Source: Octopus vulgaris
Lineage: Eukaryota
Direction of reading: 5' to 3'
NCBI GenBank assembly: GCA_951406725.2
Contig: OX597821.1
Location: forward strand, 107,818,001 to 107,882,000
Length of the DNA stretch: 64,000 bases
Positions 2,190 to 49,934 of the stretch are shown here, one piece after another. The notes below the pieces were generated by a model. That model had not been told where the DNA came from. It worked only from the letters and a program-made list of their open reading frames with translations, and searched no databases. A program made the translations under genes and the position numbers. Numbering within the stretch: the stretch's first letter is position 1; each line of letters opens with the position of its first letter.

Positions 2190-3050
2190 TCTTTTATTCT
2201 TTTATTCTTTTACTTTTTTCAGTCATTTGACTGCGGCCATACAGGAGCTACGCCTTAAAGGGTTTTAGTCGAAGAAATCGACCCTAGGACATATTCTTTG
2301 TATGCCGAGTACTTATTCTATCGGGTTCTGTTTTGCTTAGCTGCTAAGTTACGGTGTCATAAACACACCAGCATCAGTTGTCAAGGGTTGATAGGAGGAC
2401 AAACACAGACAAGCAGATACATACATACATACATACATACATACATACATACATACATACATACATACATATTTACATACATACAGGTTGCCATCTTGCT
2501 CGATGGCACGTGGCATCTGCGCCATTAGAGTCTATATATGGGTGCCCATGTTAGTATCTAATGGGCACCCATATATGGATTCTAATGGCGCAGAAGAATG
2601 AATTGATTATTTTAGCCTGGCTGTGTGTGTATACAGTTGAAAAGAATACTTTAAAAAAAGAAATAAGTAAAAATAAATACTTGCATTGTAGCTGCGTTGG
2701 GCCTCCTTAGTCTCCTGGAAACCAATATTTTTAGACCCAGTCCGCCACTACATACATACATACATACATACATACATGCATACGTACATACGTACATACG
2801 TACATACGTACATACATACATACATACATACATACATACATACATACATACATGTGTATGTGTGTGTGTATGTGTGTGTATGTGTATGTACGACCGGTTT
2901 CTTTCGGTTTACGTCTACCAAATCCATTCACAAGGCTTTGATCAGCCCGAGGCTATAACTGAAGGTACTTGCCCAAGGTGTAACGCAGTGGGACTGAACC
3001 AGGAACCTTGTGATTGAGAAGCAAACTTCTTACCACACAGCCACGCCTAC
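2190..3050 (-). mobile_element. SINE family B copy (tRNA head + CORE-like + tail), split at its internal microsatellite by unrelated sequence
   Basis: Tail half 2190-2410 (cagtcatttgactgcggcc...) and head half 2888-3050 (...acttgcccaaggtg...cttaccacacagccac) match the full copy at 16979-17452. Confidence 0.8.
2516..2594. other. 79-nt near-perfect hairpin (34-bp arms)
   Basis: tctgcgccattagagtctatatatgggtgcccat / atgggcacccatatatggattctaatggcgcaga, 2 mismatches, 11-nt loop. Confidence 0.9.
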
Positions 3051-3169
3051 GTCTATGGGTACACTTTGATTGAGCAACATATCCAGGTGCAGGAAGAGAG
3101 AACTTCACCCGCGCTTGGCTGGTAGTCATTTTTGCGATCATTGAACGATCACCAGCGCAAGACACAGTG

Positions 3170-3616
3170 CTTTACTGACCAACAAACTGAAGCCAGCAAT
3201 TCGCACCTAACGCCGAAGCCTATTGTCGAAGAAAGTTTTGTTGTCGCATGACAATGCACGCCCAGGAACAGCCGCCCAGACCGTTGAAACCATTAACCAA
3301 TTGGGTTTTGAGCTGCTGAAACAACCTGCCTACAGACCAGATCTCGCACCTTCTGACTATCATATCTTTGGACCGCTCAAAGATGGTTTACGACGTCGTC
3401 GATTTCCTACGGATGAAGATGAGAAGGAAACGGTGCATAAATGGCCGCACGACCAACTGGAGAGATTACGCAAACTTGTGAACCACTGGGCCAAGTGCAT
3501 CGAAAAGGAAGGAGACTATATAGAAAAATGGCGTACTTGGTTATTGTTTATTCCCTGCTTTTACGTAAATACATTGAAAAAACAAGAGTACGTATAATAT
3601 TTGATTCTCCCTTGTA
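3170..3616 (+). mobile_element. mariner (DD34D) transposase pseudogene, C-terminal half plus 3' TIR
   Basis: HDNARP, PAYRPDLAPSDYHIFGPLK (YSPDLAPSD motif), WAKCIEKEGDYIEK; ends ...atttgattctcccttgTA. Confidence 0.92.
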
Positions 3617-4374
3617 CATATACACAAAACTACACACACACACACGCACACGCACACACAATCCCCTCCCTCTCTCTCCCCTTCTCTCTCACACACACAT
3701 ATGCACACACACACTCACAGACATGGCTGCGCCATATTCTGAAAAGAAAAAAATATCGAAGCTTTTCGTTGTTGGTGTCTTAACCATTCTTTGTTTCCTT
3801 ATTGCCTTTTAATAGTCAAGTATTCCTTTGTTCAGAATATTCTTTGACCAAATAATGGTTGTGAGATAACAGAAACAATAGAATACGGTACGGAATAGTC
3901 GATAGAAATGATTCTTTGGAACATTTTTGCATTTTCAGTTCATATTCTATTGTTTCTTAGACATTATTCAGTTGCGTCTAATATTCCATTTCCGGTTGAC
4001 GTAACGCTTCAAAGAAATCACAGAGAAACGAAAAAACAAAAAGATCAGATAAGAAAGGAGCCTTTATGTGGTCATATGATCTCCAAAAAAGAGCAGCTAA
4101 ATCTCCCTCAAATACATTTGGGGAAAGTCTCCGTGAAAATAAACGTAAGCTTAGAAATATATGACAAAATAAAAAGTGAACCGGTATGGGTGTGTGGCTC
4201 GCTTTGTAACCAAATGGATTCTGATTCAGTGCCACTGCGTGACACCATGAGCAAGTTTTTGCTGCCTTGTGAGTGAACATGGTCATCAGAAGCTGTATGT
4301 GGAAGCTCGTCGGATGTATATATGTATGAATGTATGTATTTATGTATGTATGTCTGTATGTATGTATATATGTC

Positions 4375-4655
4375 AGTCATCGTTCAGTTTTATTTCAAGA
4401 TTTCTTGCCAATAGAGAAAGAGTCGGTTTCCAACCTAGATCCAATGCTGCTTCACTGGAATTTCAACATCAACAACAGGGTATTTTTGTTTGCATAAATT
4501 TATTCATGCATGTATGAATGTATCTACGTATCTATGCATGTATGTATGTCATTGTTCAGTTTTATTTCAAGATTTCTGACCAATAGAGAAAGAGTCGGTT
4601 TCTAACCTAGATTCAAGGCTCCTTCATTGGAATTTCAGTATCAACAATAGGGAAT
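4375..4655 (-). mobile_element. Two tandem ~105-bp retroposon 3'-end fragments embedded in (ATGT)n
   Basis: 4375-4480 and 4548-4652 near-identical (gttcagttttatttcaagatttct...agagaaagagtcggtttc.aacctagat); diverged relative at ~19830-19990 in (ATAC)n. Confidence 0.6.
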
Positions 4656-4852
4656 GTATGTATGTATGTATGTATGTATGTATGTATGTATATATGTATG
4701 TATGTATGTATGTATGTGTGCATGTATGCATGTATGTATGCATGTATGTATGCATGTATGCATGTATGCATGCATGTATGTATGTATGTATGTAAGTTTG
4801 TGAGCAGATTTGTATGTTTTGCTTTATGTATGTATTGTTTCTTTATTATCTC

Positions 4853-5164
4853 GGCAATGACCCCCTCATCAGGATGAATACCACTCTCTAGGAATTTCAG
4901 AATCAAGTAGTTCACGAGAATTACAATACAGGCGCAATTCTTATTTATTCATAACTAAAAACAAAACCGCTCCAACGAACTCCCGAATTCCTAATTTATT
5001 TTATTTTAGTTATTTATTTATTTAGTTAGTTAGGAATTTCGGACTGAACCTGCTAAAAGTTATATGTTATAAGTAAGAATTGTGTCCGTATTGTAATCCA
5101 TGTGAACTACTTCACTGTGAAATTCTTAGAGAGTTCTGTTCACACTGATGAGGAGTCCATTGTC
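4853..5164. mobile_element. Diverged fold-back element (inverted Penelope-like pLTR remnants with CTGATGAG cores)
   Basis: ctcatcag...ctctctaggaatttca...aagtagttcac...attacaatac...caattctta is mirrored by taagaattg...gtattgtaat...gtgaactactt...tgaaattcttagagag...ctgatgag. Confidence 0.65.
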
Positions 5165-5467
5165 AAGATGCGTTTAAAATTGCAATCGAACCACGGCAAT
5201 GAACTTCCAAAATGGCTATAGATGTGGATTTTGACCTATACGTTTTTGGAACTCTCTTACGCTCCTTGGGTACCGGACTTACTACGGATTGCTTCATTGT
5301 TAAGACCTAACTATTTTGATATATATTTAATCGACGGGTAAAATATTTTCAGCCGATTGATATGTTTTGATAATTCATTTTAATCACCTATTTTAGTCGA
5401 TTTTTATATATATATTTTTCCAGACATGCCCTTCTATATATTTTTGTATTTTTTAAATGTGCATATA

Positions 5468-47847: not shown

Positions 47848-48229
47848 TTTCAGACTGCGGCCAAATCGACCCCAGGAGTTACTCTTTGTAAGCCTAGTAC
47901 TTCTTCTATTAGTCTATTTTACCGAACCGCTAAGTTACAGTGACGTAAATGCATCAACACCGGGTGTGAAGCGACGGTGAGTTGGACAAACACAGACACA
48001 CAAACATATACATACACACACACACACACACACACACACACACACACACACATTAATATATATACACGACGGGCTTCTATCAGTTTCCATCAAATAAATC
48101 CACACACTAGTCTTTGGTCGGCTCGAGGCTATTTCGGAAGACACTTGCCCAAGATACCACGCAGTGAGACCGAACTCAGAACCATGTGGATGGTAAGGAA
48201 GGTACTTACTACACAGCCACTCTTGCGCC
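47848..48229 (-). mobile_element. SINE family B
   Basis: Reverse complement of the reference copy. Confidence 0.85.
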
Positions 48230-48869
48230 TATACACACACACACACACATATATATATATATATATATATATATATATATATGTATATATATATATATAT
48301 ATATATATATATATATATATGTGTGTGTGTGTGTGTGTGTGTGTGTATATATATATATATATATATGTATATATATATATACATATGTATATATATATAT
48401 ATATATATATATATATATATATATATATATATATATATATATATATATACACACACATATGATAACTATGTGTACATGTATTTACATAGACATATAGATA
48501 CATAGAAACAAATTATTATAGACACACATACATGTGTGTGTGTGTGTGTGTTAATGTATGTATGTACTTGTGTATGTGAATGCATGTATGTTATTTGTGC
48601 ATAGTTAATATATATATATATATATATATCCATAATATCTGCGTACAAATATATTTATTCTTTTCAATATCTAGTCAATTTTTTTCCACGTACTGCATAG
48701 CGTATGGGTTTACATATATGTGAATGTGTGTGTGCGTGTATTTATAAACTGTTCTTTATGAGAATGTATGTAGGCAATCATACATATTTATGAACATTCA
48801 CGAATATATCCGCATTTCTATATACTATTCCGCGCATCCGTAAAAATACGTGTACGCATATATATATAG

Positions 48870-48982
48870 GGGTAAGATATGAAAAATCAACGAAAAAGCA
48901 TATTGCAAATAGAGAAAGGCTGTCATAAATAGCCTTTCTCTATCTGCAATGTGCATTTTCGTTGATTTTTCATATTTTACCC
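48870..48982. other. Fold-back hairpin, ~52-bp arms, next to (TA)n
   Basis: gggtaagatatgaaaaatcaacgaaaa...agagaaaggct / agcctttctct...ttttcgttgatttttcatattttaccc. Confidence 0.9.
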
Positions 48983-49614
48983 TTACATTTCTACGTGTAT
49001 TTTACATTTTCTTTTGGTAACATATTTCTACTATATATATATATATATATATATATATAGAGAGAGAGAGAGAGAGAGGTACATGAATATATATATATTT
49101 ATATAAATATACAAATATATATATATATATATATATATATATATATATATATATATATATATATAGCATGTATATAAACATACATACGTACACTATATTA
49201 CATATGTTTTTATGCTTTTTCTTATACTGGTTACAGACCGAGAATGCGGCCCAGCTGGATCAACGCCTGTATACGTAACAATAGACATTTGTTGTCACGT
49301 GGGTGCGCTTATATATTGAAATAGATATAAATGTATATTTAGTCATATATGTTTATATACACAGATAGATACGATACGTATGTATAAGTATTCATACAGT
49401 TGTAAATCTATACAGAAATGCACATGTATTTGGATATATAGGAATATAGTTATAAATGTATGCATACATGTCATGTATGCGTTTAAATATACAGTGTATA
49501 TATACATATATTAACACACAATCACAGAAATGTATAGTGTGTGTTTATATCTATATATTATGTGTGTGTGTATAGTCATACCTATCTATCTATCTATCTA
49601 GCTATCTATCTATC

Positions 49615-49702
49615 AATGTTTCTTTCATCCCCCAAAAGAAAAGCTCTACCTTGTAATTTGTCCCATCTGTGTGCAGCCCTGTGTGGCCAATAAAGAAACT
49701 TA
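49615..49702 (+). mobile_element. Extreme 3' end of the Tx1-type LINE in (TCTA)n
   Basis: ttcatcccccaaaagaaaagctctaccttgtaa...gtggccaataaagaaactta matches 40072-40150. Confidence 0.85.
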
Positions 49703-49804
49703 TCTATCTATCTATCTATCTATCTATCTATCTATCTATCTATCTATCTATCTATCTATCTAACCACAGTAAATAAGGTACTCAATACATAGCAGAGTAA
49801 ATTA

Positions 49805-49934
49805 ATTTATTTTATAGAAGGAGCTTCTACAGGACTAGAGCTGTTTCATTCAAAAGAAATCATCAGGAAGCCATGATGATTTCTTTTGAATGAAACAGTT
49901 CTAGTCTTGTAGGAGCTCCTTCTATAAAATAAAT
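49805..49934. other. Fold-back hairpin, 61-bp arms, containing hammerhead core remnants
   Basis: Arms 49805-49865 / 49874-49934, 3 mismatches; minus strand CUGAUGA-UUUC(uuuu)GAAU-GAAA-CAGCUC-UA. Confidence 0.85.

What the first reader, a model, noticed from the sequence alone, without database searches (positions are those of the whole stretch)
2516..49934. Series of snap-back hairpins that look like minimal Penelope inverted-end insertions
Seen: fold-backs at 4853-5164, 9588-9779, 35032-35177, 38240-38376 (partial), 44520-44745, 48870-48982 and 49805-49934. Most abut (TA)n, several have a one-sided extension, and several contain hammerhead pieces (CTGATGA, GAAACGATCGTA, GAAACTAGTC). None has recognisable DNA-transposon TIRs. 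They mirror the architecture of the 6107-9483 element with the ORF deleted. Inference: early-aborted PLE insertions systematically seed 50-90-bp hairpins, roughly one per 10 kb here. These could supply dsRNA for editing and raw material for new miRNAs in a lineage known for heavy A-to-I editing and miRNA expansion.
Basis: inference. Interest (0 to 1): 0.7.

Follow-up and report, generated by a model that had tools for sequence, protein, structure and literature searches.

The report
Penelope-type fold-back insertion stubs
The hairpins are real, and most are likely the back-to-back stubs left when Penelope-type jumping genes insert into TA repeats and stop copying early, a known layout; they belong to several unrelated repeat families, and any role in RNA editing or microRNA birth is untested.

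Summary
All eight fold-backs exist (2516, 4848, 9587, 35032, 38239, 44521, 48870, 49805). Five have arms 92-97% identical; three are old and decayed. 6107-9516 is a 5'-truncated RT+GIY-YIG Penelope-like element with a ~500-bp inverted end, a hammerhead-type motif and a 33-bp tail. For 35032 and 48870, public-run contigs show that one arm plus its one-sided extension is a piece of a longer, very abundant repeat. Other copies continue past the loop and end in (TA)n at more than one point, which argues strongly against fixed-length MITEs. 9587 has a one-armed relative in the window. This is the published Penelope inverted-end-plus-tail layout. Limits: no hairpin matches the neighbouring element or another hairpin, none is linked to a Penelope ORF, three of the clearest extensions exceed 40 bp, one-armed stubs are as common as fold-backs, and 2516 fits poorly. 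No hyper-editing signature, miRNA match or evidence of transcription was found. The scan has reported the same layout elsewhere in this genome. Verdict: new instances of a known kind. The open, testable idea is that such stubs supply much of octopus dsRNA.

The parts
6107..9516 (-). 5'-truncated endonuclease-bearing Penelope-like element (Neptune/Nematis-type Zn-finger linker): sense 3' end 6107-6605, broken ORF 6752-8973, inverted copy of the 3' end 8974-9483, 33-bp tail 9484-9516; (TA)n on both sides
   Evidence: RVT_1 E=1e-8 and GIY-YIG E=3e-4, just under its cut-off; DKG and CX4CXXC read in the ORFs; arms 99% identical; homologs 47-61% identical, named ones mostly from molluscs
9390..9433 (+). 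Predicted type I hammerhead, U3-A8 core variant, in the inverted arm (mirror copy at 6156-6199, minus strand)
   Evidence: variant described in PMC4209133
9587..9875 (+). Fold-back: arms 9587-9664 / 9702-9779, 37-nt loop, extension to about 9875; TA tract at the left end; hammerhead 3'-half motif in both arms
   Evidence: right arm plus extension match the one-armed copy at 20529-20718 (z=15.5)
20529..20718 (-). One-armed relative of the 9587 element, no inverted partner within 3 kb
35032..35350 (+). Fold-back: arms 35032-35101 / 35108-35177, extension of about 173 bp; piece of a very abundant repeat with TA-ended copies at about 35171-35180 and 35346-35350; no hammerhead recognised
48870..49030 (+). 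Fold-back: arms 48870-48921 / 48931-48982, 48-bp extension; loop, right arm and extension are one stretch of an abundant repeat cut at 48920; 2-nt overlap at the junction
49763..49934 (-). Fold-back: arms 49805-49865 / 49874-49934, TA at the right end, 42-bp stretch on the left ending at (TATC)n; partial hammerhead (CTGATGA core) at the inner end of the arm
   Evidence: family membership of the extension not tested
38074..38376 (-). Old fold-back 38239-38376 with a near-complete type I hammerhead (38238-38280, minus); 165 bp of sequence to (TA)n on the left; right arm runs into a fragment of a common interspersed repeat
4848..5169 (.). Old fold-back, 79% identical arms, CTGATGA in both arms without GAAA; no TA flank; likely same class, weakly supported
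44521..44826 (.). Weak old fold-back (73%), TA at the left end, 81 bp to TA on the right; class undetermined (Penelope stub or decayed TA-TSD MITE)
2516..2594 (.). 79-bp palindrome, 34-bp stem, no TA, no extension, no hammerhead piece; probably a different class

Best explanation
Most of these hairpins (35032, 48870, 9587, 49805, 38239; less surely 4848 and 44521) are likely short, 5'-truncated, head-to-head insertions of the 3' ends of several unrelated Penelope-like retroelement families. Shown: each is an inverted pair, and for 35032 and 48870 one arm plus a one-sided extension is part of a longer abundant repeat whose copies end in (TA)n at more than one point. Inferred from published work on a lizard Penelope element: the RT/GIY-YIG protein nicks both strands of a TA tract and starts reverse transcription at two internal sites on the RNA, so one product carries the extension and the other does not. 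Both stop after 50-100 nt and are joined through a few bases of microhomology. When one product runs long, the result is the 6107-9516 element; when only one is fixed, a one-armed stub. The hairpins would be by-products of insertion; they would be ADAR substrates only if transcribed, which is untested.
For:: 16, 14 and 19 contigs in three runs continue upstream of 48920 with one shared sequence (agreement 0.87-0.90); copies run into (TA)n at 48982; the extension is itself repeated; depth at the junction bases is 6-86 against 1e4-3e5 on the arms; 1532, 1103 and 1603 contigs laid on 35098-35348 in the three DNA-type runs; loop bin depth 7-50; TA-ended copies at 35171-35180 and 35346-35350. Both arms of 48870 share a state (48914/48938) that more than 99% of family depth lacks, and both arms of 35032 share three minority states, as expected from one template; one-armed relative of 9587. 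TA adjacency P about 5e-5; hammerhead pieces on the outward strand in 4 of 8 (a 6-nt palindromic 3' half is expected 0.26 times in all unmasked sequence); a coding element with the same geometry 70 bp from 9587. Literature.
Against: No hairpin resembles the 6107 element's end (best z 1.0) or any of 46 non-cephalopod Penelope-relative loci (no hit better than E=0.15). No contig links any hairpin family to an RT. 35032 and 48870 show no hammerhead in the parts present. The family-confirmed extensions are 48, about 97 and about 173 bp, longer than the published 30-40-bp tail. Only 2 of 8 hairpins were laid on reads, and depth near the ends of a laid stretch falls for technical reasons. 2516, 4848 and 38239 do not abut TA.
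Confidence: 0.72

Rival explanations
1. Same Penelope origin, but one cDNA folds back on its own 3' end and self-primes (snap-back), as the first reader and Arkhipova 2013 propose, instead of two separately primed products being joined.
For: Loops of 6-9 nt with direct pairing at the junction in 35032, 48870 and 49805; arms share private variants; self-priming proposed in PMC3846280.
Against: The short arm stops at a point where many other copies also meet (TA)n (48982; 35171-35180), which two RT start sites explain directly (PMC11167929). Snap-back needs an extra step to stop there.
Confidence: 0.3
2. The repeats are short non-coding elements (solo pseudo-LTRs or retrozyme-like units) moved in trans by Penelope proteins, not aborted copies of full-length elements.
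For: No ORF link found; thousands of contigs per family; four about 200-bp hammerhead-like copies in the window share both ends; retrozymes are described as Penelope derivatives (bioRxiv 10.64898/2026.07.22.740005).
Against: No tandem arrays at these loci; the upstream extent of each family is unknown.
Confidence: 0.3
3. The hairpins are fixed-length MITEs or palindromic DNA transposons.
For: Remains open for 2516 (symmetrical, no TA, no extension) and 44521 (arms begin and end with TATA). MITE families are listed for Octopus vulgaris in PMC13282606.
Against: For 35032 and 48870 the loop junction is near single-copy while the arms are abundant, and the extension is family sequence. No TSD above 1 nt at any of 8 arm ends.
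Confidence: 0.1
4. Locus-specific inverted duplications made by repair of breaks at TA cruciforms next to pre-existing repeats.
For: The loop of 9587 holds short repeated pieces that look templated; TA tracts flank most hairpins.
Against: Duplicated arms end at family end points rather than random places; the same geometry surrounds a coding Penelope element; all informative cases are repeat ends.
Confidence: 0.07
5. Assembly artefact (fold-back chimeric reads).
For: Repeat-rich assembly.
Against: Arms differ by 3-27%; a contig from a run of another organism label spans the 48870 junction with 43 and 47 letters on each side (X5 record 25; X4 record 17 likewise).
Confidence: 0.02

Closest known systems
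Inverted-pLTR insertions of endonuclease-bearing Penelope-like elements (Penelope/Poseidon, Neptune, Naiad; PMC8557442, PMC3846280)
   Same: Inverted 5'-truncated copy joined head-to-head, extension at one end only, TA microsatellite targets, hammerhead motifs near the end
   Different: Here both copies are cut to 50-100 bp, giving a bare hairpin; confirmed extensions are 48-173 bp, not 30-40; no ORF link is shown
Poseidon_Ac of the green anole (PMC11167929)
   Same: Two end points separated by a tail; AT-rich target; both strands cut and extended in vitro
   Different: Different clade and host; biochemistry not shown for these families
Minimal hammerheads of truncated PLEs (PMC4209133)
   Same: Scattered single motifs, pairs on opposite strands 100-700 bp apart, palindromic helix III, U3-A8 core variant
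   Different: Most motifs here are partial or decayed; cleavage untested
Palindromic Harbinger repeats of Xenopus as ADAR substrates (PMC5625713)
   Same: Self-folding repeat needing no neighbour; would be edited if transcribed
   Different: Harbinger is a DNA transposon with a palindromic consensus; here the palindrome is made at each insertion; editing not shown
MITEs
   Same: Short, non-coding, inverted arms
   Different: Junction not shared among copies, one-sided family extension, no TSD (shown for 2 of 8)

Membership tests
EN+ Penelope-like element (6107-9516) | RT followed by C-terminal GIY-YIG | tested here: met
   (RVT_1 above cut-off; GIY-YIG 21.4 vs 22.6 bits); homologs carry both domains
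EN+ Penelope-like element (6107-9516) | DKG motif and CX2-5CXXC linker (Neptune/Nematis, not Naiad) | tested here: met
   read by eye in the ORFs; criteria from PMC8557442; no tree was built
EN+ Penelope-like element (6107-9516) | Inverted end, 30-40-bp tail, hammerhead in the end repeat | tested here: met
   about 500-bp arms, 33-bp tail; U3-A8 motif
Truncated inverted PLE insertion (hairpins) | Arm is a 5'-truncated piece of a longer repeat; junction is locus-specific | tested here: met
   35032 and 48870; 9587 by one relative; other 5 of 8 not tested
Truncated inverted PLE insertion (hairpins) | One-sided extension is family sequence | tested here: met
   35032, 48870, 9587; not tested for 49805, 44521, 38239, 4848
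Truncated inverted PLE insertion (hairpins) | Tail of 30-40 bp | tested here: inconclusive
   48 bp (48870), about 97 (9587), about 173 (35032), 42 (49805, unconfirmed); longer than published values
Truncated inverted PLE insertion (hairpins) | TA microsatellite target | tested here: met
   5 of 8 within 10 bp vs 6% background
Truncated inverted PLE insertion (hairpins) | Hammerhead in the end repeat | tested here: inconclusive
   near-complete only at 38239; pieces at 4848, 9587, 49805; none at 2516, 35032, 44521, 48870
Truncated inverted PLE insertion (hairpins) | Sequence continuity with a PLE ORF or a known PLE terminus | tested here: inconclusive
   no match to the one element in the window or 46 non-cephalopod loci; end repeats are family-specific and no cephalopod PLE library or genome was available
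MITE / palindromic DNA transposon | Fixed length with shared internal junction | tested here: not met
   35032, 48870; not tested for the other six
MITE / palindromic DNA transposon | Target-site duplication | tested here: inconclusive
   at most 1 nt at 8 of 8 arm ends; a TA duplication cannot be excluded at 44521
MITE / palindromic DNA transposon | TIRs matching an autonomous transposon | not testable with these tools
   no eukaryotic repeat library on hand
miRNA precursor | Match to a known family | tested here: not met
   none of the 150 listed rows (of 576) reaches its gathering score; best on a hairpin 52 vs 90.8 bits
miRNA precursor | Precise mature/star small-RNA reads | not testable with these tools
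   only contigs were available
ADAR substrate | A-to-G changes in RNA reads of the locus | not testable with these tools
   no raw RNA reads with matched DNA

The most novel reading that the evidence does not exclude
Penelope insertion itself manufactures a perfect 50-500-bp hairpin every 10-15 kb of the octopus genome, and these ready-made stems are the main source of its unusually high dsRNA content and non-coding hyper-editing, the counterpart of the palindromic Harbinger repeat in Xenopus. Near-perfect arms cover 0.8% of this window, or 2.4% with the coding element, against a published 0.44% of 50-bp loci for O. bimaculoides measured differently. Birth of true miRNAs from them is much less likely (about 0.07).
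Probability: 0.25. Interest if true: 0.6.

Novelty: new member of a known kind. Interest (0 to 1): 0.3.

Why it matters
The layout is known, so the hairpins themselves are ordinary transposon debris. Two uses remain. First, very short fold-backs from many families record where reverse transcription starts and how the two products are joined, which is still unresolved for Penelope elements. Second, Porath et al. 2017 found octopus unusually rich in self-pairing DNA and hyper-editing but left octopus out of their repeat-class analysis; these stubs are a concrete candidate source. Automated pipelines could also mislabel them as MITEs or miRNA hairpins.

Tried and rejected
No whole genome was held, so no genome-wide scan was run. 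Similarity of hairpin ends to the 6107 element: apparent shared T-rich motifs by eye did not survive 300 shuffles (of 132 comparisons only two true-relative pairs passed). Hairpins against 46 Penelope-relative loci from MAG records: nothing. Pattern searches: 48870 arm in metagenomes 0; 49805 arm in viral contigs 0; 2516 17-mer gave 9 viral hits whose alignment scores add little to the 85 of the pattern itself. Protein-led locus searches in metagenome and viral contigs: none. Host exons: 93 of 196 unmasked six-frame segments of 50 aa or more were scanned; one sub-threshold Pfam hit only, so no transcribed strand is known. Expression: no RNA holder listed; run X12 is only guessed to be RNA, carries contigs of both families (156 and 22 laid), and none of its listed pieces bridges a junction, which is no evidence either way. 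Inherited ADAR edits: 2-4 mismatches per young hairpin; polarised cases are mixed (35146 C-to-T; 48876 A-to-G; 48944 T-to-C), so no hyper-editing. Rfam: no gathering-level hit among the 150 rows shown, and no hammerhead family among them. Sequence look-ups in earlier scan notes for 2516, 9587, 35032, 48870 and 49805 returned nothing.
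Full report
Setting. The window is animal DNA, 36% masked as simple repeats (23,207 of 64,000 bases). Named homologs of its retroelement protein come from Octopus bimaculoides and bivalves, and earlier scan notes call the genome octopus; I did not determine the species. No whole genome was held, so evidence on other copies comes from the window and from contigs of four public runs.

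The observation. A self-comparison of the masked window finds six of the eight fold-backs at E below 1e-3. 38239 and 44521 appear only in arm-against-arm alignment, where they beat 200 shuffles, 44521 narrowly (37 vs 33). Five are near-perfect (92-97%; arms 34, 78, 70, 52, 61 bp) and three are old (73-79% or partial). One further weak AT-rich fold-back at 49345-49511 (69%) was not pursued. Four of 8 touch a TA tract within 3 bp and 5 of 8 within 10 bp, against 3% and 6% for random unmasked spans. Arm ends show no target-site duplication above 1 nt.

The reference element. 6107-9516 has RT and GIY-YIG on the minus strand, a DKG motif and a CX4CXXC linker, which PMC8557442 gives as marks of Neptune/Nematis rather than Naiad. 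The ORF has one stop and one frameshift and is cut just inside the conserved N-terminal motif seen in homologs. The arms are about 500 bp, 99% identical. A type I hammerhead-like motif lies at 9390-9433 (+) and 6156-6199 (-); its core is the U3-A8 variant reported for Schistosoma PLEs. So the left arm is the sense 3' end, and the right arm is the inverted copy with a 33-bp tail. This matches the published scheme.

Are the hairpins pieces of longer repeats? For 48870 (416, 270, 439 and 22 contigs laid), 16, 14 and 19 contigs in three runs continue before 48920 with one common sequence. The loop, right arm and 48-bp extension are therefore one stretch of the family, and the left arm is an inverted copy overlapping it by two bases. 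Other copies meet (TA)n at 48982, the end of the arm. Depth at the junction bases is 6-86 against 1e4-3e5 on the arms; summed contig depth is not a copy number, but the contrast is large. Both arms carry a state absent from more than 99% of family depth. A contig in run X5 (organism C) bridges the junction with 5 differences in 91 letters, and X5 also covers the unique left flank, so the hairpin is real and probably predates the split of these organisms. For 35032 (1532, 1103, 1603 and 156 contigs laid on the right arm plus extension), the whole 240 bp is abundant, the loop bin is at depth 7-50, and copies meet (TA)n at 35171-35180, at 35346-35350 and at some points between. Edge effects lower depth at both ends of a laid stretch, so I do not read a truncation gradient from it. 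For 9587, a one-armed relative at 20529-20718 covers arm and extension (z=15.5).

Are they Penelope? The evidence is architectural and motif-based. Hammerhead pieces occur in four hairpins on the outward strand; only 38239 is near complete (top score in the window, not reached in 10 shuffles). The 9587 motif type is expected 0.26 times in the unmasked sequence, CTGATGA 5.7 times, so the 4848 and 49805 cores are weaker. Against this, no hairpin end resembles the 6107 element, another hairpin, or 46 Penelope-relative loci from MAG records. Three of those loci carry four hammerhead motifs with palindromic helix III, but with other palindromes. In the 6107 element the motif lies 50-93 bp from the short end, so a 52-bp arm could miss it; that is a possible excuse, not a test. 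Extensions of about 97 and 173 bp exceed the published tail. 2516 has none of the features.

Mechanism. In vitro, the anole element cuts and extends both strands of AT-rich DNA and starts at two internal RNA sites whose spacing equals the tail. Applied here by inference: two products, one with and one without the extension, both stopping early and joined head-to-head. Snap-back self-priming fits the tight loops equally but explains the fixed short-arm end less simply. Fold-back is not obligatory: eight one-armed, mostly TA-flanked stubs have no inverted partner within 3 kb; their Penelope origin is itself inferred.

Editing and miRNA. Nothing here shows transcription. On the plus strand, mismatches in the five young hairpins are G.T-type 9 times and A.C-type once (P=0.02, noticed after the fact); over all seven aligned hairpins 19 to 12 (P=0.28). 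Polarised cases are mixed, so there is no inherited hyper-editing of the kind earlier notes report elsewhere. Stems of 52-78 bp exceed the roughly 35-bp Drosha substrate (recalled, no call). In print, Porath 2017 reports high dsRNA potential and hyper-editing in octopus, heavy editing of Penelope in lizard, and palindromic Harbinger in frog, with octopus left out of the repeat-class analysis. I found no paper tying Penelope fold-backs to cephalopod editing or miRNAs in searches; the library lacks most subscription papers, and I read no supplements, where repeat-class editing tables may exist.

Papers seen. PMC8557442, PMC3846280, PMC5625713, PMC9699675, PMC13282606, PMC8967140 and bioRxiv 2020.01.19.911685: passages only. 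PMC11167929 and PMC4209133: parts 1-2 of 4. bioRxiv 2026.07.22.740005: part 1 of 5. Others: search listings.

Verdict. Real hairpins, mostly new instances of a known Penelope insertion layout from several families, with one or two exceptions. Interest 0.3; the editing-substrate hypothesis is worth a genome-wide test.

Noticed in passing
window 40550-40733, 41207-41393, 59927-60128, 61958-62160 (minus); fragments 47353-47421, 33176-33273: Four one-armed copies of an about 200-bp repeat (80-87% to the 61958 copy) with TA-rich flanks and nearly shared ends, carrying a minimal hammerhead-like motif whose core has T in place of A6 in all four; possible solo pseudo-LTR or retrozyme-like unit.
   Followed up: partly
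window 9390-9433 and 6156-6199: Hammerhead core is the U3-A8 covariant form, previously noted in Schistosoma PLEs.
   Followed up: partly
hairpins 2516, 9587, 35032, 48870, 49805: Arm mismatches are G.T-type on the plus strand 9 times of 10 transitions (P=0.02, post hoc; not significant with the old hairpins added); could reflect strand-biased mutation or chance.
   Followed up: partly
window 2489-2594: Small nested palindromes directly upstream of the 79-bp hairpin; its 34-bp stem and 11-nt loop are the only ones of pre-miRNA size; class unknown.
   Followed up: partly
window 36906-37071 and 44843-44970: Two related one-armed stubs starting at (TA)n, 81% identical over 108 bp.
   Followed up: partly
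window 9665-9701: Loop of the 9587 hairpin contains short repeated pieces of the arm end, resembling templated insertion at a junction.
   Followed up: no
window 3211-3597; 38884-39688; 36416-36793 with 60247-60507 and 62875-63133: A mariner-like transposase remnant (by eye, no Pfam hit), a LINE fragment with zf-RVT, and repeated LINE-like 3' ends (by eye), two of them inverted 2.4 kb apart.
   Followed up: no
L010-L055: Penelope-type RT relatives sit in contigs filed as bacterial MAGs, most likely animal host DNA.
   Followed up: no
   Followed up: no
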